Numbered from the stretch's first letter, positions 9,902 to 56,272 are shown. The stretch: 64,000 bases of DNA from Candidatus Latescibacterota bacterium (GCA_965219385.1 CBDCNM010000001.1:856631-920630); one strand, 5' to 3'. Program-made: numbers and translations. The notes: a model not told the origin generated them from the sequence alone.

Positions 9902-11482
9902 TCAAACGCGGTAGGCGAAGAGTTTTGCCCCGAACATTCTGATGCGGATCCCGACCGTTTCGCCGAGAGCGGAGATGTCGCTGCGGCCTTTCCAGGTTAC
10001 CACCCGGTCTTCGCAATCGCCTATCAGGCGGTCACATTCAGCGAAACTGAACCCCGGAGCCGGGTCGGTGTCGGGCAACATCAGCGATGGGATCTTCTCC
10101 AGCAGCTCGACCTGAATCCAGCCGCCTGGTTCGCAGCGATAGTTGAGGTGCAACTCGTCGTGAGCGCGGAAGAGCGATGGCATGGTAAAGCGGCCTTGCG
10201 CTGGGGCGCGCAGGCCGCACAACCGATGCGGTCGCCAGCGCGCCCAACGAATCTGCAACGGCCGCCGCGCCGGAAACAGCGAAGGCACCTTGTCGGCCGG
10301 CGGATCGTGTATCACCGAATTTCCCGTGTACGGAGACGCCCAGTACCCGTCGGGTAGCTCCACGATTCCGCTGCGCCAGAAGTGCGCCGAACACTCGTCG
10401 CCATCCCCTTCGGCCCCCAGTGGCAGTATCGCCCTGCGCTCAGGGCGCGACCAGTAAAGCCCGTCGCGGCTGAAGGCGATCTGCCCGTCAATGGTGCTGG
10501 CGATCTGGTGGTAAATGGGGATCAACATGCCGTGCAGATCATCGCGGCCAGGGTAGGCAAAGTAGTTGGCCCCGTAAAAGGAGATGTCTGGAGGGTCCGC
10601 GGCATCGGGGTGCAGGATCAGCTTCGGCGCCGGCCAGCTACGGAAATCGTCCGTGCGGGTAAAGCCGATGGTGCGGATCTGTATCCCTTGTTCGAGTCTG
10701 CTGACACCGATGCCTTCGAGGACTTCGGCCGGGTAGCCCATAAGCTGTATATAGGCGAAATAGTTGCCGTGGTGCTCGTCGTAGCGGGCCGCGACGCCGC
10801 CATTGACCGGTCTGTATGCCACCGGTTCTTCGATCTGCTTCCAGTGGATGTGATCGGGTGAGGTCCATGCAGTCATGCGACCGTGGATTTGGGCTCTTGG
10901 ACCGGTGTAGCCCTGTCCCCCCTGTTCCGCCTTTAAGCGTCGGCCTACTTCTTCTCCCTTCAGTTCTTCACCCGTGTCGGGATCGGCCCAGTACATGCGC
11001 CCCCCCAGCGCCTTGAAGCGCTGTTCGGGAGGGGCGCTGGGGTCTTCGAAGGTGCCTGTCGCTCCCTTGGCCGGACTGGAGATCAGGTTGTTGTGCTTCG
11101 AACCGTTGTACTCGACTTCGTTCAGGTTGGGCCGCGTCCAGTTGTAGGCATCTTCGCTGACGGCGTAGCCCTGACCCCCTGCGGTATCGTAGAGCATGTG
11201 GTAGCGCTCGTCTTCCCGCCATATACACAGCGGCGCGATCGAATTCTCCTCCCATTCTTTTTCTGCTTCGAGCAGGGGCTCGGATTTTTGCGCCTCTTCG
11301 ATTTCGAAGCGAATCCCGGAGGGCGCGTCGTAGAGTTCGAGCTCGCCGTTCCGACTGGAGCCCCGGTGCCCCGGAAAGACATCGATCATGTCGACCAGCG
11401 GACTCCAGGCGCCGGTGTTGGGACGGATGCGAGGCGGTCGTGGCTTGAAAGGTTCTTTCTGTTTGTCTTCGCTATCTTCCAT
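9902..11482 (-). CDS. Hypothetical protein, possibly a glycoside-hydrolase-like beta-propeller
   Basis: 526 aa ORF with repeated Asp-box-like motifs (SEDAYNW, SPDHIHW, TDDFRSW, SRDGLYW). Confidence 0.6.
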   Translation of the reverse strand: MEDSEDKQKEPFKPRPPRIRPNTGAWSPLVDMIDVFPGHRGSSRNGELELYDAPSGIRFEIEEAQKSEPLLEAEKEWEENSIAPLCIWREDERYHMLYDTAGGQGYAVSEDAYNWTRPNLNEVEYNGSKHNNLISSPAKGATGTFEDPSAPPEQRFKALGGRMYWADPDTGEELKGEEVGRRLKAEQGGQGYTGPRAQIHGRMTAWTSPDHIHWKQIEEPVAYRPVNGGVAARYDEHHGNYFAYIQLMGYPAEVLEGIGVSRLEQGIQIRTIGFTRTDDFRSWPAPKLILHPDAADPPDISFYGANYFAYPGRDDLHGMLIPIYHQIASTIDGQIAFSRDGLYWSRPERRAILPLGAEGDGDECSAHFWRSGIVELPDGYWASPYTGNSVIHDPPADKVPSLFPARRPLQIRWARWRPHRLCGLRAPAQGRFTMPSLFRAHDELHLNYRCEPGGWIQVELLEKIPSLMLPDTDPAPGFSFAECDRLIGDCEDRVVTWKGRSDISALGETVGIRIRMFGAKLFAYRV

Positions 11483-11593
11483 TGCAAGGGGGCTCAGCCA
11501 GCGAGAAGGGGGGACAGGTCACGCGAGACGGGGTCTGTCGCAGCCGGTTTTCGACAAGCGCTCAATGGATAAATAAAGCGCCTTTGGGGGTGC

Positions 11594-12505
11594 ATGGTCA
11601 AGAAGCGGAGCCTCTTTCGCCCCATTCTGCGCGTGCAGGTGCTGCAACTGGAAAGAGAGCTGCGCAGCGCTGGCTACCGCCCGCGTCCCTACCGGAGCTT
11701 TTGCGTGTACGAGCCCAAGCTGCGGCGAATCTGTGCGGCCGACATCCGCGATCGCGTGGTGCATCACGCGATTATCCGCGTGTTGGAGCCGTACTTTGAA
11801 GCCTGCTTCATCCACGACACCTACGCCTGTCGCCCCGGCAAAGGGACGCACCGGGCCGTGCGGCGTGCCCAGGCCTTCAGCCGCCGCCACCGCTATGTTC
11901 TCCAACTCGATGTGCGCAAGTTTTTCGGCAGCGTGGATCACCCAATCCTCAAATCGCTGTTGGCGCGGCGGTTCAAGGATCGGCGCTTGCTGGCCCTGCT
12001 GGCGCGGATCATTGACCATCCCATACCCGGCGGTAGCCCGGGGCGCGGGCTGCCCATCGGCAACCTAACGAGCCAGTACTTGGCCACCTTCTACTTGGGG
12101 TACCTGGACCACTTTGTGAAAGACGAATTGGGGATAAAAGGCTATGTGCGCTACATGGACGACCTGTTGCTCTTTGGCGAGGACAAGGCCGTTCTGCACC
12201 GCCAGTGGGCGCTCCTGCGCGGCTTTTTGCACGACCGCCTCAAGCTGGACTTGAAAGAGGAAGCGGTGCGGTTGGCCCCGGTCGGGCAAGGGATTTCCTT
12301 TTTGGGGTTCAGAATTTTTCCGCGGATGATCCGCCTCCAGCGGGTGGGGTGGACCCGCTTCAAGCACAAGGTACGCGACCGCGAACAGGCGTATCGGGAG
12401 GGCCATATCGACGAGCGCGAACTGGTGCATTCCGTCCAGAGTTTGTTGGCCCATGTCCAGCAGGCCCGAACGCGGCGGTTGCGCCGACAATTTTTCCAGG
12501 GGTGA
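11594..12505 (+). CDS. DGR-type reverse transcriptase
   Basis: EPKLRRI, RDRVVHH, YACRPGKGTHRA, LDVRKFFGSVDH, GLPIGNLTSQ (DGR-type SQ motif), YVRYMDD, FLGFRI; 303 aa; no maturase or endonuclease domain. Confidence 0.95.
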   Translation: MVKKRSLFRPILRVQVLQLERELRSAGYRPRPYRSFCVYEPKLRRICAADIRDRVVHHAIIRVLEPYFEACFIHDTYACRPGKGTHRAVRRAQAFSRRHRYVLQLDVRKFFGSVDHPILKSLLARRFKDRRLLALLARIIDHPIPGGSPGRGLPIGNLTSQYLATFYLGYLDHFVKDELGIKGYVRYMDDLLLFGEDKAVLHRQWALLRGFLHDRLKLDLKEEAVRLAPVGQGISFLGFRIFPRMIRLQRVGWTRFKHKVRDREQAYREGHIDERELVHSVQSLLAHVQQARTRRLRRQFFQG

Positions 12506-12513
12506 GAGCCGTC

Positions 12514-12638
12514 ACCGGCTCCAATCGCGTCATCCGGGGCGGCAACTTCAACAATGACGCCCGGAATGTGCGGTCGGCGAATCGCAACAACAACTCGCCG
12601 GGCAATCGCAACAACGACGTGGGCGTGCGCCTTTTGAG
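12514..12638 (+). repeat. DGR template repeat (TR)
   Basis: 125 bp with 29 A and 12 AAC/AAT codons; aligns to 13771-13898 with 20 of 28 substitutions at TR adenines. Confidence 0.95.
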
Positions 12639-12800
12639 CACGGGGTCTGGCCCGAAGAGACCTGTTTACGGATCGGTCTCCTGTGCCGGCGATCCCGTCC
12701 AGGCCCTCATCCTGCGGCCGGCAGAGCCGGCCCCAATATACTCATCGGGTGGCGGCTGGTAGGCTCAGAAGAGATCGACGGTGGCCGCCCGATTCCTTCA
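12639..12800 (+). ncRNA. Putative DGR spacer RNA segment 3' of TR (IMH* and structured spacer)
   Basis: Non-coding, GC-rich with short inverted repeats (e.g. GGCCGGC-AGA-GCCGGCC), immediately after the TR; function inferred from DGR architecture. Confidence 0.5.
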
Positions 12801-12942
12801 GGGAATTAAACGGTGAAGAGGCTCTATCAGTGAAACGCTGGTTGGACCGGCTCGCCCGCGCAGACTTGGTCGCGGGGACGGGGTTGATGTTGCCGCCCTT
12901 TGGGGGCGAAGGGCTGGGCTATGGATTCTTTGCCTCCGCCGG

Positions 12943-12972
12943 TTGTCCCCGGTGGGGGACTTTCCGTATAAT
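12943..12972 (+). promoter_or_regulatory. Putative sigma70 promoter of the DGR target gene
   Basis: TTGTCC-N18-TATAAT upstream of RBS GAGGAG and ATG 13027. Confidence 0.5.
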
Positions 12973-13026
12973 ATACGCGTCCGGCGTGGTGCTTGGCGCG
13001 TTTACCCCTTATTTGAGGAGGATAGT

Positions 13027-13908
13027 ATGATGCGAAACAGGTTGCGCCTATTGACGGGCCTCGTTGTGTGCGGGGCCTTGGTGCTGGTCGCTTGCGGCGA
13101 CGAGGATTCGCCTACGAGTGCCGGTGGTCGGGGAAACTCGACGGGCGATGCGAAGAGGTTTTCGCTGCCCGGTGGGGCGGCGATGGAGTTTGTCTGGATT
13201 GAGGGGGGTACGTTTTTCATGGGCTCGCCGCCTTCGGAGGAATGGCGTTGGGATGATGAAGGTCCGGTGCATGAGGTGGAGATCAGCGCGGGGTTCTGGT
13301 TGGGCAGGTATGAGGTTACGCAGGGTCAGTGGGAGGCGGTGATGGGGTGGCGGCCGTGGTCCGGGTCAGAGTATGAGTCCGGGAAAGAGTATGTGGTGTC
13401 GGATCCGTCTCATCCGGCGGTGTATATTTCCTGGAAAGACGTGCAGGTTTTCATAACGAAGTTGAATAGTGCGGCGGGGGCGGCACGGTATCGTTTGCCT
13501 TCGGAGGCGGAGTGGGAGTATGCGTGCCGGGCGGGTACCAGGACGCGGTGGTCGTTCGGGAATGACGAGCGTCAGCTTACGGACTATGCGTGGTATGGTG
13601 CCAATAGGTGTGATGTGGGTGGGGGGTGTTATGGCCGTGCGGTGGGTCTGAAGGGTGCGAATCCCTGGGGGTTGCACGATATGTACGGGAATGTGTGGGA
13701 GTGGGTGCAGGACTGGCATGACGGGGACTATTATGAGAGATCGCCTCGGGTGGACCCTCCGGGGCCTGAGACCGGCTCCTTCTTTCGCGTCCTCCGGGGC
13801 GGCTCCTTCCTCAATCTCGCCCAGGATGTGCGGTCGGCGTATCGCCTCGGCCGCTGGCCCGAGCTCCGCTACTACGACATGGGCGTGCGCCTTTTGAGGA
13901 CTCCTTAG
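13027..13908 (+). CDS. DGR target: lipoprotein with FGE-sulfatase (CLec-fold) domain
   Basis: Lipobox LVAC; FFMGSP, YEVTQGQW, YRLPSEAEWEYACRAG, NPWGLHDMYGNVWEWVQD, RVLRGGS, GVRLLR; VR at 3' end. Confidence 0.95.
   Translation: MMRNRLRLLTGLVVCGALVLVACGDEDSPTSAGGRGNSTGDAKRFSLPGGAAMEFVWIEGGTFFMGSPPSEEWRWDDEGPVHEVEISAGFWLGRYEVTQGQWEAVMGWRPWSGSEYESGKEYVVSDPSHPAVYISWKDVQVFITKLNSAAGAARYRLPSEAEWEYACRAGTRTRWSFGNDERQLTDYAWYGANRCDVGGGCYGRAVGLKGANPWGLHDMYGNVWEWVQDWHDGDYYERSPRVDPPGPETGSFFRVLRGGSFLNLAQDVRSAYRLGRWPELRYYDMGVRLLRTP
13771..13898 (+). repeat. DGR variable repeat (VR)
   Basis: 128 bp copy of the TR with A-biased substitutions and one extra codon; shared 3' end GGGCGTGCGCCTTTTGAG. Confidence 0.95.
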
Positions 13909-14812
13909 AGGCCCTAACAAAACTCTTTGAGGTACTTCCAACAGATGAGAATACATCCGATGTCGAGAAAGGCTTCATGGAGATCACCTCGTCGCTCCCA
14001 GCGGACTCGAAGCCGACGGAATTGGTGCAACCATGCCAACGTTCGTTCCACCACCCACCGATAGACGCCCAAGCCGCTGCCGTGGGCTTGCCCTCGCCGA
14101 GCCAACACCGAGCCGATGCCCCGCTTACGCAAGGCGCGCCGATGGGCTTGCGAATCATAGGCCCGATCCCCTTGCACCCGATCCGGCCGACGGCGCGGGC
14201 GGCCGACCCGACCGGCCACCGGGGGTATGCGATCCACCAACGGCAACAGCTGCGTCACATCATGCCGATGGGCCCCCGTCACCCCCGCCGCCAACGGCAC
14301 CCCTTGGGCATCGGTGATTACATGGTGTTTGCTACCGGGTTTGCCGCGGTCCGTCGGATTGGGACCGGTGTGCGCCCCCCCCCAACCGCCCGCACCGAGG
14401 CACTATCGACCACCGCACGAGACCAATCAATCCGGTCGGCGGCCCTCAGTCGGTTCAACAGGATATGATGGACTCTTTTCCAGACCCCGGCTTGTTGCCA
14501 AGCGTGCAGGCGACGCCAACAGGTCATCCCCGAACCGCACCCCATCTCTTGAGGCAAATACTCCCAAGGGATACCCGTCTTGAGCACAAAGAGAATGCCG
14601 GTCAGCACCCTACGGTTATCCAGCCGAGGCCGCCCCCCTTGGGGGCCAACGGTTACGGGGGGCAAAACCGGTTCAATCAAGGCCCATAACCCATCGTCGA
14701 GTAACGGCTTGGCCATCAAAAACACCTCCATATCAAGACGGTAGAAGCAATACCGAAGAGGATAAGAATATAATGAAGCCTATACGCGATTCCAAGGTTT
14801 TGTTAGAGACTC
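13908..14812 (-). mobile_element. IS5-family element (two-ORF, IS427-like), copy 1
   Basis: 905 bp; TIRs GAGGCCCTAACAAAAC / GTTTTGTTAGAGACTC; TTA duplication at 13905-13907 and 14813-14815; ORFs 14318-14731 and 13914-14300 (TGIPW, GDRAYDS, RWVVERT) joined near a G run. Confidence 0.95.
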
Positions 14813-14815
14813 TTA

Positions 14816-14940
14816 GTGTTACCCTTGGGTTCCTTTACCCTTTTACCCTTGGCTTGGGGGTTTCGCCTGCAGGGTGCCCCGTAGCCCTTAAGGGGGGCGT
14901 AGCGTAGCCGCCCCCGCCGGGCGGAGGGGTGCCCTGCAGG
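14816..14940 (+). promoter_or_regulatory. Displaced DGR target-recognition region: pyrimidine repeats plus GC hairpins
   Basis: TTACCCTT repeats, then inverted repeat 14866-14880/14926-14940 enclosing a GGGGGCG-N9-CGCCCCC hairpin (14893-14915); would directly follow the target stop if the IS were removed. Confidence 0.55.
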
Positions 14941-14974
14941 GGGGGGGATGTTTCTTACGGTTCGGGCCGGGTGC

Positions 14975-15142
14975 CTCAAACGCCGGTGGATTGTTGAACG
15001 GACCTTTGCTTGGTTGTTCAATTATCGGGTCCACTCGAAAGATTATGAGGTCTTGACCGCTAATAGTGAAGCGTTTATACACCTAGCCATGATCCATCTG
15101 CTGCTCAAGCGACTCGCCTGCTAAGGGTTTTAAAACGGCTTC
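14975..15142 (+). mobile_element. IS5-family transposase 3' remnant with right end
   Basis: Manual translation [28 protein letters not shown]...KRLAC*; end TTTTAAAACGGCTTC. Confidence 0.8.
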
Positions 15143-15221
15143 TGAGAAAATATGAATTTCGCTGTTCTAGATCCGGATAGACGGCACGGCAGGTTCTGGC
15201 AGACTCAGGTAAAAGAAGGTC

Positions 15222-15995
15222 GTGATGAGGTACCTACTGGTGGGGATGCTCATACTGGGTTTCTGGCATGGAGGCGTGGCCGCGAAGCCGGTGGCAGTGT
15301 ATGCGGCGGCGAGTTTGGGCAGCGCGCTGGAAGATCTGGCGCAAACAGTCGCGCAACGCGGCATGGAGATGAAGTTTTCGTTCGGCAGCTCGTCCACGAT
15401 GGCCAAGCAGATCGAGGCGGGGGCGCCGGCGGATATTTATTTTTCGGCGCATGAGAAGTGGATGGATTACCTGGAGAATCGCGCTCTCATCGCGCCGGGC
15501 ACGCGTGCGAATCTGCTGGGCAATGCGCTGGTGGTGATCGTCCCGAAAGGCGAGGGATTTGAGCTGGATCTGCGACTGGATTTCGATTTTGCCAGGGCGT
15601 TCGACGGGCGGCTGGCCCTCGGTGATCCCACCCATGTACCGGCGGGCATCTATGCCCGGCAGGCGCTGGAAACCCTGGGCTGGTGGTCCGCGTTGCAGAG
15701 CCGGATCGTCCCTGCCGGCGATGTGCGCGCCGCCCTGGCCCTGGTGGAACGGGGCGAGTGCCCGGCAGGGATGGTGTATGCGACCGATGCGGCGGTCAGC
15801 CAAGGCGTTGAGGTGATCGGGGTGCTGCCCGATTCTCTGCACGCCCCTATTGTGTATCCGTTGGCGGTTGTAAAGGGACGACACACGGCGACCGTGGTGG
15901 CGGCGTGGCGTTTTTTTCAATCGGATGAAGCCGCGGCCGTGTTTAAACGCTATGGATTCCAGGTGCTGGGCGCAAAAAACGGCGAGGAGGAGTGA
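15222..15995 (+). CDS. modA: Molybdate ABC transporter substrate-binding protein
   Basis: YAAASL, SFGSSSTMAKQIEAGAPADIY, VPAGIYA, YATDA. Confidence 0.95.
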   Translation: MMRYLLVGMLILGFWHGGVAAKPVAVYAAASLGSALEDLAQTVAQRGMEMKFSFGSSSTMAKQIEAGAPADIYFSAHEKWMDYLENRALIAPGTRANLLGNALVVIVPKGEGFELDLRLDFDFARAFDGRLALGDPTHVPAGIYARQALETLGWWSALQSRIVPAGDVRAALALVERGECPAGMVYATDAAVSQGVEVIGVLPDSLHAPIVYPLAVVKGRHTATVVAAWRFFQSDEAAAVFKRYGFQVLGAKNGEEE

Positions 15996-54768: not shown

Positions 54769-56272
54769 GTGAAATCAGCCCAGGTTGTATCGAGCACGCC
54801 TCATCCTGGAGAACAGTTGCATCAGACCGACGAGGAATTGGTGCGCCGCTTCAAAGACGGCGAGGAGCAGGCCTTTAACGAGATCGTGCACCGCTTTCAA
54901 GAACGCATCTTTAGAGGCCCTAACAAAACTCTTTGAGGTACTTCCAACAGATGAGAATACATCCGATGTCGAGAAAGGCTTCATGGAGATCACCTCGTCG
55001 CTCCCAGCGGACTCGAAGCCGACGGAATTGGTGCAACCATGCCAACGTTCGTTCCACCACCCACCGATAGACGCCCAAGCCGCTGCCGTGGGCTTGCCCT
55101 CGCCGAGCCAACACCGAGCCGATGCCCCGCTTACGCAAGGCGCGCCGATGGGCTTGCGAATCATAGGCCCGATCCCCTTGCACCCGATCCGGCCGACGGC
55201 GCGGGCGGCCGACCCGACCGGCCACCGGGGGTATGCGATCCACCAACGGCAACAGCTGCGTCACATCATGCCGATGGGCCCCCGTCACCCCCGCCGCCAA
55301 CGGCACCCCTTGGGCATCGGTGATTACATGGTGTTTGCTACCGGGTTTGCCGCGGTCCGTCGGATTGGGACCGGTGTGCGCCCCCCCCCAACCGCCCGCA
55401 CCGAGGCACTATCGACCACCGCACGAGACCAATCAATCCGGTCGGCGGCCCTCAGTCGGTTCAACAGGATATGATGGACTCTTTTCCAGACCCCGGCTTG
55501 TTGCCAAGCGTGCAGGCGACGCCAACAGGTCATCCCCGAACCGCACCCCATCTCTTGAGGCAAATACTCCCAAGGGATACCCGTCTTGAGCACAAAGAGA
55601 ATGCCGGTCAGCACCCTACGGTTATCCAGCCGAGGCCGCCCCCCTTGGGGGCCAACGGTTACGGGGGGCAAAACCGGTTCAATCAAGGCCCATAACCCAT
55701 CGTCGAGTAACGGCTTGGCCATCAAAAACACCTCCATATCAAGACGGTAGAAGCAATACCGAAGAGGATAAGAATATAATGAAGCCTATACGCGATTCCA
55801 AGGTTTTGTTAGAGACTCTTAATCTGGTCTTCCGGCTCCTGCAGGACTTTGATGAGGCCCACGATATCGCCCAGGAAACCTTCATTCGCGCGCACGACAA
55901 ACTAAAGGGGTTCAGAGGGGAATCAACCCCCTATACCTGGCTTTATAGAATCGCTTTAAATTTAAGCCTTAACCATATGCGCAAGAAAAAGTTGCGCGCC
56001 TTTTTTTCTCTGGATTCAATGGCGACTCAAGACCTGGCCGCGGCCGGTGGTCCGGAGCGGGATCTGGACGCGGCGCGGAACTGCGCACACAGGTGGACGC
56101 CGCCGTGGGGCGGCTACCTGGGCGCCAGCGCAGTATCTTCATCCTGCGGCAATACGACCGGTTATCCCACAGGGAAATCGCCGAGGTGCTGGGTTGTTCC
56201 GAGGGCAGTGTAAGAGCAGGTTATTTCCACGCCGTAAAAAAGTTGCAAGCAGCCCTCAAAGATTGGCTATGA
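54769..56272 (+). pseudogene. ECF sigma factor disrupted by IS5 and a frameshift
   Basis: DEELVRRFKDGEEQAFNEIV..RIF|NLVFRLL..DIAQETF..TWLYRIALN; region 4 (LPGRQR..EIAEVLG..SVRAGYFHA) is in another frame after about 56075. Confidence 0.9.
54914..55818 (-). mobile_element. IS5-family element, copy 2 of 13908-14812
   Basis: 905 bp; same TIRs and identical ORF translations; TTA duplication at 54911-54913 and 55819-55821. Confidence 0.95.

What the first reader, a model, noticed from the sequence alone, without database searches (positions are those of the whole stretch)
11594..14940. Diversity-generating retroelement hypervarying a surface lipoprotein
Seen: an RT with GLPIGNLTSQ/YMDD, a 125-bp non-coding repeat 8 bp after its stop, and a second copy at the 3' end of an FGE/CLec lipoprotein gene. 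By hand alignment 20 of 29 TR adenines differ in the VR (AAC to TCC, CTC, GGC, CGC, TAC; AAT to TTT, GAT, TAT), versus 8 of 96 non-A positions. Known: this is the signature of DGR mutagenic retrohoming. Inference: a chromosomal, non-phage DGR diversifying a membrane-anchored ligand-binding surface (nucleotide ceiling 4^29).
Basis: partly seen in the sequence, partly recalled or inferred. Interest (0 to 1): 0.92.

Follow-up and report, generated by a model that had tools for sequence, protein, structure and literature searches.

The report
Truncated diversity-generating retroelement on a lipoprotein
This is a real diversity-generating retroelement aimed at the tip of a lipoprotein, but this copy has lost its helper genes and the start of its reverse transcriptase, so it is probably a fading member of a well-known system.

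Summary
A 125-nt template repeat (TR, 12514-12638) starts 8 nt after the RT stop. It recurs as a variable repeat (VR, 13771-13898) at the 3' end of an FGE-sulfatase/C-type-lectin-fold lipoprotein gene. In the gap-free register 18 of 27 TR adenines differ, against 9 of 90 other bases (p=1.4e-8). The RT is DGR-type: its best solved relative is the 328-aa RT 8ub7 (E 2e-49; group II intron RT 2e-27). A-biased TR/VR pairs occur in 54 of 81 related loci.

The cassette is incomplete. The clade's standard layout is target-HRDC-Avd-RT-TR(-second target). Here HRDC and Avd are missing from the locus and from the whole genome. The RT lacks about 26-29 conserved N-terminal residues, which in the Bordetella phage enzyme form the Avd-contacting subdomain. 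Non-adenine mismatches are the second highest of 55 cassettes. An IS5-family element with 24 genome copies sits at the target's stop codon.

Against complete decay: the RT body, the TR and a covarying post-TR RNA are intact. One public run also holds an IS-free allele with a different, TR-like VR. My reading is a genuine chromosomal DGR, a new member of a known kind, probably crippled. Current activity is unproven.

The parts
11573..11640 (+). Scrambled 5' junction of the RT gene. An in-frame TAA at 11570-11572 is followed by ATA AAG CGC... There is no ATG/GTG/TTG before 11594. Homology to full-length relatives starts only at about ORF residue 10-12.
   Evidence: Sequence; three-frame translation and tblastn; alignment A1. 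The same sequence is present, with 0 differences, in contigs of runs from two studies (X1 record 1; X2 records 9-10).
11594..12505 (+). DGR-type reverse transcriptase, N-terminally shortened: 303 aa against 326-447 aa in 53 related cassettes. Motifs IGNLTSQ and YMDD are present.
   Evidence: Pfam RVT_1. Best PDB match 8ub7_A, E 2.1e-49, against group II RT 6ar1, 2.3e-27. Closest homolog P0001 is 86% identical and 332 aa. Deviates at 4 of 71 near-invariant columns, against 3 for P0001.
12514..12638 (+). Template repeat (TR), non-coding, with 29 adenines, all at codon positions 1-2 of the target frame.
   Evidence: Only one TR and one VR in the 5.8-Mb genome. The TR is identical in run X2 (record 11: its 10 differences all lie outside the TR).
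12634..12795 (+). Conserved structured RNA segment downstream of the TR, the analogue of the 'Sp' region of the Bordetella phage DGR RNA. Contains two main helices with conserved loops.
   Evidence: Alignment of 23 loci. Of 25 consensus pairs, 20 have compensatory changes; 95.1% of cells are paired against 68.1% in shuffles and 37-43% when slid. The window forms 23 of 25 pairs. Only a sub-threshold partial Rfam RT-3 match, 12735-12792, E 0.15.
12943..12972 (+). Promoter-like site (TTGTCC-18-TATAAT, 10 of 12 matches) ahead of the target gene.
   Evidence: This is a consensus match only.
13027..13908 (+). Target gene: a 293-aa lipoprotein (signal peptide with lipobox LVAC) with an FGE-sulfatase / C-type-lectin-fold domain.
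   Evidence: Pfam PF03781, E 9.3e-47, residues 82-319 of the 321-aa ORF. Best PDB match 2y3c, Treponema denticola variable protein 1, E 1.4e-25. The lipobox was read by eye.
13771..13898 (+). Variable repeat (VR), the last ~42 codons of the target. Carries a 3-nt in-frame insertion relative to the TR.
   Evidence: An alternative VR allele was seen in run X2.
13908..14812 (-). IS5-family insertion sequence (905 bp). It has 16-nt terminal inverted repeats (14 of 16 matching), a TTA target duplication (13905-13907 and 14813-14815), and a transposase in two ORFs (14318-14731 and 13914-14300). It is inserted exactly at the target's stop codon, and the TAG is preserved.
   Evidence: sequence. (DUF4096, DDE_Tnp_1, NF033580 IS5 transposase halves); 24 full-length copies listed at 100% identity in the genome, all matching bases 1-905. 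An IS-free junction was seen in run X2 (joint 12638->14812).
14948..15124 (+). C-terminal fragment of a second DDE transposase (IS debris).
   Evidence: Pfam DDE_Tnp_1_2 and DDE_Tnp_1, C-terminal ~45 positions only.

Best explanation
The locus is a genuine chromosomal diversity-generating retroelement.

In its working form, the RT copies an RNA that contains the TR and its structured downstream segment into cDNA. It misincorporates opposite template adenines. The cDNA then overwrites the VR at the 3' end of the lipoprotein gene, so up to 12 AAY codons plus 3 single-adenine codons of the C-type-lectin-fold binding face are rewritten. By my arithmetic that allows roughly 15^12 x 4^3, about 8e15 proteins.

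The copy in this genome is only the 3' part of the clade's standard cassette, (target1)-HRDC-Avd-RT-TR-RNA-(target2). It retains a shortened RT, the TR, the RNA segment and the downstream target. It has lost HRDC, Avd and the first ~26-29 residues of the RT. A multi-copy IS element has since landed at the target's stop codon.

I therefore think mutagenic retrohoming shaped this VR in the past and is now abolished or strongly impaired, leaving the VR essentially frozen in this strain.

Shown: the parts, the adenine bias, the clade membership, the missing components, the IS insertion, and a second VR allele in a population.
Inferred: the mechanism (by homology to the Bordetella phage DGR), the loss of activity, and the order of events.
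For: DGR identity:
- Adenine-specific TR/VR mismatches, 18 of 27 A vs 9 of 90 non-A, p = 1.4e-8.
- The RT's best solved relative is 8ub7_A (328 aa), E 2e-49, against 2e-27 for a group II intron RT and 7e-18 or weaker for the two chains that the PDB titles 'Retron-type reverse transcriptase' (5hhl, 5hhj).
- Of 81 related loci, 54 show an A-biased repeat pair. In 46 of those 54 the TR lies within 100 nt of the RT stop, as here.
- Related targets are FGE-sulfatase domains with the VR at the extreme 3' end. The window target's best solved relative is the T. denticola DGR variable protein.
- The post-TR RNA is conserved with covariation and is present here.

Truncation and impairment:
- All 6 related loci with the same RT-TR-target order carry HRDC and bAvd directly upstream of a full-length RT. 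Three of them also have an upstream FGE-type target.
- Six-frame search finds Avd in 63 of 76 and HRDC in 60 of 67 related loci with enough upstream sequence.
- The window has neither. The genome (94% complete, 2 contigs) has no hit to PF05635, PF22296 or a clade Avd. The clade HRDC query matches only a 420-aa frame, at E 4e-4.
- The RT ORF, at 303 aa, is the shortest of 54 (the others are 326-447 aa). It lacks the segment that in the closest homolog reads MKRIGHLFEQIVRFDNLLAAAHKAVQG. That segment aligns collinearly to residues 3-28 of 8ub7.
- In the Bordetella phage enzyme the N-terminal extension is the Avd-binding subdomain and Avd is required for catalysis (passages of bioRxiv 10.1101/2023.10.23.563531).
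- The non-A share of mismatches, 9 of 27, ranks 54th of 55 cassettes. The median is 1 non-A mismatch.
- The VR also carries a 3-nt indel relative to the TR.
- The IS lies 9 nt beyond the end of TR-VR homology.
Against: - The RT body shows no excess decay. It has 4 deviations at 71 near-invariant columns: 2 lie in the scrambled N-terminal junction, and the other 2 (I61, T165) are also seen in P0001. Among 117 homologs the mean is 1.16 and the maximum 5, and the closest two have 3 each. There are no stops or frameshifts in 303 codons.
- The TR and the post-TR RNA are intact, with 23 of 25 pairs formed.
- In run X2, from a second study, the same shortened RT and an identical TR occur. One contig (depth 4) carries an IS-free allele whose VR is collinear with the TR and at least 88% like it. 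At least 8 differences are listed: 6 at TR adenines and 2 G-to-A. This looks like a more recent retrohoming product. X2 also holds the window-type VR.
- Avd-less DGR lineages are described: 74% of 372 DGRs have avd, and 'Lineage 3' lacks it (passages of PMC5758913).
- 10 more distant loci of this clade have HRDC directly upstream of the RT but no detectable Avd.
- The IS leaves the target ORF, its stop codon and the VR unchanged.
- My cassette comparison accepted only repeat pairs with at least 60% of mismatches at A, so more decayed relatives would be invisible.
Confidence: 0.62

Rival explanations
1. The cassette is still a working DGR. The shortened RT, together with the TR and its downstream RNA, carries out mutagenic retrohoming without Avd, HRDC or the N-terminal helix of the RT. 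The lipoprotein is being diversified now, at least in IS-free strains.
For: - The RT body is intact, with all catalytic and DGR-signature motifs.
- The TR and covarying RNA are intact.
- Two VR alleles on otherwise identical flanks occur in run X2, where only the shortened RT form was seen. One allele is very close to the present TR, and its differences lie mainly at adenines.
- Avd-less DGRs exist in other lineages (PMC5758913 passages). HRDC-only cassettes occur in the wider clade.
Against: - Nearer relatives keep both Avd and HRDC: 25 of the 26 related loci with RT identity of 49% or more have both, and the exception, L026, has too little upstream sequence to tell.
- Avd is required for catalysis by the one DGR RT studied biochemically, and the lost RT segment is part of its Avd/RNA-contacting subdomain.
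- The window VR has 8-9 non-A differences and an indel relative to the TR. Frequent overwriting should erase these.
- The second allele rests on one contig of depth 4 in one run. It could predate the truncation or come in by recombination from a co-occurring relative whose VR shares two of its substitutions.
Confidence: 0.22
2. The cassette depends on helper functions supplied in trans, by Avd/HRDC or a complete DGR on a phage, plasmid or co-resident element that is not in the assembly. It then diversifies only when that element is present.
For: - The genome is 94% complete, so something may be missing.
- The runs contain a more abundant relative with a homologous target. Its VR maps onto part of this TR (contigs of depth 17-25 with joints 13776/13778->12569).
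- Remote targets served by a distant RT are described for other DGRs (PMC5758913 passages).
Against: - No Avd, no clade HRDC protein and no second DGR-type RT were found in the two contigs.
- The related element seen in the reads sits on a target gene only ~88% identical over 13675-13776 (X3 record 20: 12 other letters in 102 nt), so it belongs to another organism.
- A trans-acting Avd would still face an RT that lacks its docking segment.
Confidence: 0.08
3. It is not a retroelement product at all. The two repeats would be an ordinary duplication or gene-conversion tract that drifted apart, next to an unrelated RT.
For: There are 9 non-A mismatches and a 3-nt indel.
Against: - The adenine bias has p = 1.4e-8 and is directional.
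- All 29 TR adenines sit at codon positions 1-2.
- The same RT-TR arrangement with A-biased VRs recurs in 54 related loci.
- The TR sits between the RT and a clade-conserved RNA.
Confidence: 0.02

Closest known systems
Bordetella phage BPP-1 DGR (bRT, Avd, TR-Sp RNA, Mtd). I equate PDB 8ub7-8ube with it from recall of its 328-aa length and from the structure preprint 10.1101/2023.10.23.563531; the PDB code does not occur in the passages I read.
   Same: - RT family: E 2e-49 over residues 15-294. The full-length homolog P0001 is collinear from residue 2.
- Adenine-specific TR-to-VR differences.
- VR at the 3' end of a C-type-lectin-fold target.
- A structured RNA directly downstream of the TR.
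   Different: - Chromosomal, not phage.
- Gene order is RT-TR-target rather than target-avd-TR-RT.
- The target is an FGE-type lipoprotein, not a tail fibre.
- No Avd.
- The RT lacks the start of the N-terminal extension that contacts Avd.
- No hairpin after the VR was detected.
Treponema denticola DGR with variable protein TvpA (PDB 2y3c). This is 'Architecture C', the HRDC-containing DGRs, of Wu et al. 2018 (PMC5758913).
   Same: - The target is an FGE-sulfatase-fold protein with a C-terminal VR, E 1.4e-25 to 2y3c.
- The RT's clade carries an HRDC accessory gene, usually together with avd. Wu et al. report that about half of HRDC-containing DGRs also contain avd.
- That TvpA is a lipoprotein is recalled, not checked here.
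   Different: - This copy has neither HRDC nor Avd.
- It has one target only, whereas the Treponema DGR has several remote targets (passage).
- Only 14 HRDC-type DGRs were in the 2018 survey. Here 60 of 67 related loci have HRDC, so the clade is much larger than that survey showed.
Legionella pneumophila DGR diversifying the lipoprotein LdtA
   Same: A chromosomal or island-borne DGR that diversifies the C-terminal C-type-lectin-fold domain of a lipoprotein.
   Different: The Legionella cassette has Avd and an MSL accessory gene (passage). There is no evidence here for surface exposure or for current activity.
Rfam RF03068 RT-3 RNA
   Same: A weak partial match of the last helix of the post-TR element: 12735-12792, model positions 92-148 of 148, 19.4 bits, E 0.15.
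   Different: The match is below the gathering score of 40.5. None of 16 related loci reaches the gathering score for this or any other RT-associated family. I do not file the element under RT-3.

Membership tests
Diversity-generating retroelement (DGR) | Reverse transcriptase of the DGR clade, with the [I/L/V]GxxxSQ motif (motif definition recalled) and closer to bRT than to group II intron or retron RTs. | tested here: met
   IGNLTSQ and YMDD are present. PDB ranking: 8ub7 2e-49, group II 6ar1 2e-27, and 7e-18 and 1.2e-17 for the two chains the PDB titles 'Retron-type reverse transcriptase' (5hhl, 5hhj). NCBIfam group-II, retron and Drt models all fall far below their cut-offs.
Diversity-generating retroelement (DGR) | TR/VR pair whose differences fall at TR adenines. 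| tested here: met
   18 of 27 A vs 9 of 90 non-A, p = 1.4e-8. In the gapped register, 20 of 29 vs 8 of 96. Caveat: the non-A count and the 3-nt indel are high for the clade. Wu et al. report a maximum of 11 non-A differences in one target.
Diversity-generating retroelement (DGR) | VR inside the 3' end of a protein-coding target with a C-type-lectin or Ig fold. TR non-coding and next to the RT. | tested here: met
   The VR ends 10 nt before the end of the stop codon of a PF03781 protein. The TR starts 8 nt after the RT stop. The same holds in 46 of 54 related cassettes.
Diversity-generating retroelement (DGR) | Accessory protein (Avd, or HRDC/MSL/CH1 in some lineages). | tested here: not met
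   No Avd or HRDC in the window. In the genome, PF05635, PF22296 and a clade Avd give nothing. The clade HRDC query matches only a 420-aa frame, E 4e-4. MSL and CH1 were not searched. 26% of surveyed DGRs lack avd, so this feature is common but not universal.
Diversity-generating retroelement (DGR) | Full-length RT including the N-terminal extension. | tested here: not met
   303 aa against 326-447 aa in 53 relatives. Counterparts of residues 1-26 of the closest homolog (about 3-28 of 8ub7) are absent, and the next ~15 residues are scrambled.
Diversity-generating retroelement (DGR) | Structured RNA flanking the TR that supports priming and processivity. | tested here: met
   A clade-conserved element with 20 of 25 covarying pairs. 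The window forms 23 of 25 pairs. Its role in priming is inferred from the Bordetella system.
Diversity-generating retroelement (DGR) | Target-site cis elements: IMH at the VR 3' end and a hairpin/cruciform downstream. | tested here: inconclusive
   TR and VR are identical over the last 19 nt (12620-12638) and then diverge. Perfect hairpins of 5 bp or more after the VR occur in only 14 of 54 relatives, and none occurs in the window with or without the IS.
Diversity-generating retroelement (DGR) | Ongoing diversification: VR variants within a population with an invariant TR. | tested here: inconclusive
   One alternative VR allele on identical flanks in run X2, with an identical TR. Contigs only, depth 4, one run. 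Raw reads were not available.
IS5-family insertion sequence (IS1031-like group; group features recalled) | DDE transposase, terminal inverted repeats, short TNA-type target duplication, multiple copies. | tested here: met
   - Two ORFs match the halves of NF033580: 107.2 and 104.4 bits, each just under the whole-protein cut-off of 110. PF13340 and PF01609 are above their cut-offs.
- 16-nt inverted repeats with 14 of 16 matching, and a TTA duplication.
- 24 full-length copies.
FGE-sulfatase-fold DGR variable proteins (TvpA-like) | PF03781 domain whose C-terminal strands are encoded by the VR. | tested here: met
   PF03781 model positions 4-255 of 255 match residues 82-319 of the 321-aa ORF. Best PDB match is 2y3c. 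Enzymatic FGE active-site residues were not examined.

The most novel reading that the evidence does not exclude
A natural minimal DGR: an RT that has lost the Avd-docking start of its N-terminal extension, with no Avd and no HRDC in the genome, still performs adenine-mutagenic retrohoming using only the TR and its downstream RNA. The TR-like, IS-free VR allele in run X2 would be its recent product. Its unusual spectrum (few adenines changed, some G-to-A) and the many non-A differences of the window VR would reflect the altered fidelity of an accessory-free enzyme.
Probability: 0.18. Interest if true: 0.65.

Novelty: new member of a known kind. Interest (0 to 1): 0.3.

Why it matters
As it stands this is one more chromosomal DGR on an FGE/C-type-lectin lipoprotein, a class already described.

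It has two modest points of value. First, it is a dated snapshot of how a DGR decays or is pruned: loss of the accessory genes and the RT's docking segment, non-adenine drift between TR and VR, and an IS hit at the VR boundary, while the RT core, TR and RNA remain intact. Second, the comparison set shows that the HRDC+Avd type of cassette (14 examples in the 2018 survey) is a large and widely spread clade with a strongly covarying RNA element after the TR.

If the shortened cassette turned out to be active, it would define the minimal protein requirement for mutagenic retrohoming. That would interest those who engineer DGRs for targeted mutagenesis.

Tried and rejected
- First Avd search used PF05635. 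This model is sub-threshold for the clade's Avd proteins, so I repeated the search with PF22296 and a clade protein.
- Exact 30-mer upstream of the VR in metagenome contigs: 0 matches.
- RT against metagenome contigs: 14 relatives, 13 at 35-41% identity and one at 25%. No closer cassette was recovered.
- The closest homologs (86% identity, ENA contigs) could not be fetched as DNA. I therefore have no dN/dS and no DNA-level view of the deletion.
- Synteny of the left neighbour in relatives G015 and G004: homology ends inside the neighbour gene, so it gives no insertion boundary.
- Hairpin after the VR: not a feature of this clade. I make no claim that the IS removed a cis element.
- Rfam: nothing at gathering score in the window or in 16 of the 81 related loci. 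There is one weak RT-3 partial hit.
- Frameshifted remnants of the missing RT N-terminus or of Avd/HRDC upstream of the RT: none convincing. The 'IKR' vs 'MKR' resemblance at 11573 is too short to count.
- RNA evidence: no RNA holder listed.
- Earlier notes of this scan: nothing for this place or sequence.
- Structure prediction of the target and an RT tree were not run. Pfam and PDB sequence matches and the clade's shared architecture already answer those questions.
- Supplementary tables of PMC5758913 were not opened. They may list close relatives.

Full report
**1. Observation.**
The RT ORF (11594-12505, 303 aa) matches Pfam RVT_1. It contains the IGNLTSQ and YMDD motifs.

The repeat finder reports a direct repeat, 12525-12641 vs 13785-13901, 77% identical. 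In that gap-free register 18 of the 27 TR adenines differ from the VR, against 9 of 90 other bases (Fisher p = 1.4e-8). Sorting the mismatches by VR base gives no bias, so the direction is TR to VR.

Extending upstream with a 3-nt gap (the VR has an extra TTC) adds two A-to-T changes. All 29 TR adenines sit at codon positions 1-2 of the target frame, and 11 of 12 AAY codons are changed.

The genome holds one TR and one VR only.

**2. The parts.**
- *RT.* The best solved relative is 8ub7_A, a 328-aa 'Reverse transcriptase' (E 2.1e-49). A group II intron RT scores 2.3e-27. The two chains that the PDB titles 'Retron-type reverse transcriptase' (5hhl, 5hhj) score 7e-18 and 1.2e-17. I take 8ub7 to be the Bordetella phage bRT, from its length and from the structure preprint. 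The PDB code itself was not in the passages I read.
- *Phage homologs.* tblastn against phage records gives 157 matches, all under 60% identity, including five Bordetella phage records.
- *Target (13027-13908).* It is an FGE-sulfatase-fold protein (E 9.3e-47). Its nearest solved relative is the Treponema denticola DGR variable protein (2y3c, E 1.4e-25). Its N-terminus has a signal peptide with the lipobox LVAC, read by eye.
- *Neighbours.* They are an OmpA-family protein, a 526-aa protein without a Pfam family, ModABC, an ammonium transporter and a sensor kinase. There are no phage genes.

**3. The clade and its standard cassette.**
The RT has thousands of homologs, typically about 337 aa long. 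I fetched 80 loci from species genomes and one from a relative (L010).
- A script found an A-biased repeat pair in 54 of these 81 loci. 26 had none, many of them on short contigs. L076 was dropped as a tandem-repeat artefact.
- The TR lies within 100 nt of the RT stop in 46 of the 54.
- The VR lies upstream of the RT in 48 loci and downstream in 6, plus the window.
- Between target and RT, Pfam finds an HRDC protein and a bAvd-like protein. This came from 69 of 74 ORFs of 100 aa or more. Five overlapping ORFs of L045, L046 and L080 were left out.
- All six loci with the window's order carry HRDC and bAvd directly upstream of a full-length RT. Three of them also have an upstream FGE-type target.
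- A six-frame search gives Avd in 63 of 76 loci and HRDC in 60 of 67 loci with enough upstream sequence. Ten loci have HRDC directly upstream of the RT and no Avd. Only L091 lacks both, together with L086, which has just 734 nt upstream.
- Wu et al. (PMC5758913, passages only) describe HRDC-containing DGRs as 'Architecture C', with 14 examples. About half of them also carry avd.

**4. What is missing here.**
- *Accessory genes.* The window has neither HRDC nor Avd. The 5.8-Mb genome (2 contigs, 94% complete) gives no hit to PF05635, PF22296 or a clade Avd. The clade HRDC query matches only a 420-aa frame, at E 4e-4.
- *RT N-terminus.* The ORF is the shortest of 54 (303 aa; the others are 326-447 aa). 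An in-frame TAA lies 21 nt upstream of the ATG, with no alternative start between them.
- *Extent of the loss.* Alignment with the five homologs fetched (P0001, P0003, P0008, P0013, P0034) shows that the conserved N-terminal segment is absent. The next ~15 residues are not alignable. The full-length homolog P0001 aligns collinearly with 8ub7 from residue 2, so the lost part corresponds to about residues 3-28 of that enzyme.
- *Likely consequence.* The structure preprint states that the N-terminal extension contacts Avd through an extensive interface. A conserved Lys29 on a loop braced by Avd touches the template, and Avd is required for catalysis (passages only).
- *Not an assembly error.* The shortened 5' end is identical in contigs from two studies.

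**5. Other signs of age.**
The non-A share of mismatches (9 of 27) ranks 54th of 55 cassettes, and the median cassette has one non-A mismatch. My filter required at least 60% of mismatches at A, so worse cases could not appear.

Five of the non-A differences cluster at 12596-12606, and the VR has a 3-nt insertion.

A 905-bp IS5-family element (13908-14812) sits at the target's stop codon. It has a TTA duplication and 16-nt inverted repeats, and its transposase is in two ORFs. The TAG stop is preserved because the element begins with G. The IS has 24 full-length copies listed at 100% identity in the genome. A fragment of another transposase follows at 14948-15124.

**6. Signs of life.**
- *RT body.* It deviates at only 4 of 71 near-invariant columns. 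Two of these lie in the scrambled junction, and the other two (I61, T165) are also seen in P0001. The closest homologs have 3 deviations. Across 117 homologs the mean is 1.16 and the maximum 5.
- *Post-TR RNA.* A ~160-nt non-coding segment after the TR is conserved in 23 loci. 20 of 25 consensus pairs show compensatory changes. 95.1% of cells are paired, against 68.1% in shuffles and 37-43% in slid controls, and no shuffle reached any observed measure. The window forms 23 of 25 pairs. No Rfam family matches at threshold.
- *A second VR allele.* Logan contigs of four runs from two studies were laid on 11300-15300. Run X2 has the same shortened RT and an identical TR.
  - One X2 contig (depth 4) joins 13780 to 12524-12638, then to 'GACTC' and 14812. 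This is an IS-free allele whose VR is collinear with the TR, without the 3-nt insertion.
  - Its listed differences are A-to-T at 12554, 12557, 12565 and 12593, A-to-C at 12586, and G-to-A at 12556 and 12568. An A-to-T at 12523 is implied by the joint.
  - Fourteen rows of that table were not shown, so 8 differences is a lower bound. The 88% threshold caps them at about 13.
  - X2 also holds the window-type VR (record 13, 0 differences).
  - So two very different VRs lie on identical flanks in one population, and one is much 'younger' relative to the present TR.
- *Limits of this evidence.* It rests on one low-depth contig. A more abundant relative in the same runs has a homologous target whose VR shares two of the substitutions (12586, 12593), so recombination is a possible source.

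**7. Reading.**
The locus is a true DGR of the HRDC+Avd clade. It once wrote the C-terminal binding face of a TvpA-like lipoprotein. The present copy is the 3' part of the cassette.

I consider it most likely crippled (0.62). Continued Avd-independent activity (0.22) and trans-complementation (0.08) remain open. A non-retroelement origin is excluded for practical purposes (0.02).

I could not date the truncation relative to the VR alleles. An assembly-graph break in X2 at 11578-11607, where depth drops from 28.7 to 6.0, also remains unexplained. It falls exactly at the RT's scrambled 5' end.

**8. Novelty.**
DGRs on FGE/C-type-lectin lipoproteins, chromosomal DGRs, non-A mismatches, in-frame indels and Avd-less cassettes are all in print (PMC5758913 passages). 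This is a new member of a known kind, with a decay state that is instructive rather than surprising.

Noticed in passing
window 12634-12795; L012-L060 post-TR regions (alignment A2): A ~160-nt structured RNA follows the TR throughout this RT clade. It has conserved loop motifs and strong covariation (20 of 25 pairs). It is not matched by any Rfam family at threshold. In several relatives the last helix is followed by a T-run and may double as a terminator.
   Followed up: partly
window 9902-11482 (minus strand): A 526-aa protein with no Pfam or NCBIfam match belongs to a family that is hugely expanded in relatives: up to 34 matches in G008 and 20 in G002 at E <= 1e-30.
   Followed up: no
window 13908-14812 and about 54914-55818; genome-wide: The IS5-family element has 24 full-length copies listed at 100% identity in the 5.8-Mb genome, plus one copy at 85%. 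This points to a recent burst. A second copy lies in this window.
   Followed up: partly
window 14816-14947: A G+C-rich stretch with an imperfect inverted repeat (14866-14887 / 14919-14940) lies between the IS and a transposase fragment. Run X2 differs here by a GG insertion and a T-to-G change.
   Followed up: no
L013, L022, L043, L014, L033, L034 (targets): Targets of this DGR clade fuse the variable FGE/CLec domain to NACHT/STAND NTPases, a caspase domain, a metallophosphatase or zinc ribbons. These are sensor-like, probably intracellular proteins, quite unlike the window's lipoprotein.
   Followed up: no
L034, L041: Two loci of this RT clade sit in MAGs labelled Thermoplasmata / Thermoplasmatales archaea. 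The other loci span many bacterial phyla, which suggests wide horizontal spread (or binning errors).
   Followed up: no
window 11578-11607 in run X2: Contig depth drops from 28.7 to 6.0 at an assembly break exactly at the RT's scrambled 5' end. Other strains may share the left flank and then differ.
   Followed up: no
L027:1-1654: The rRNA operon end next to that DGR carries a group I intron in the 23S gene (Rfam Intron_gpI, 73.7 bits), followed by 5S rRNA.
   Followed up: no
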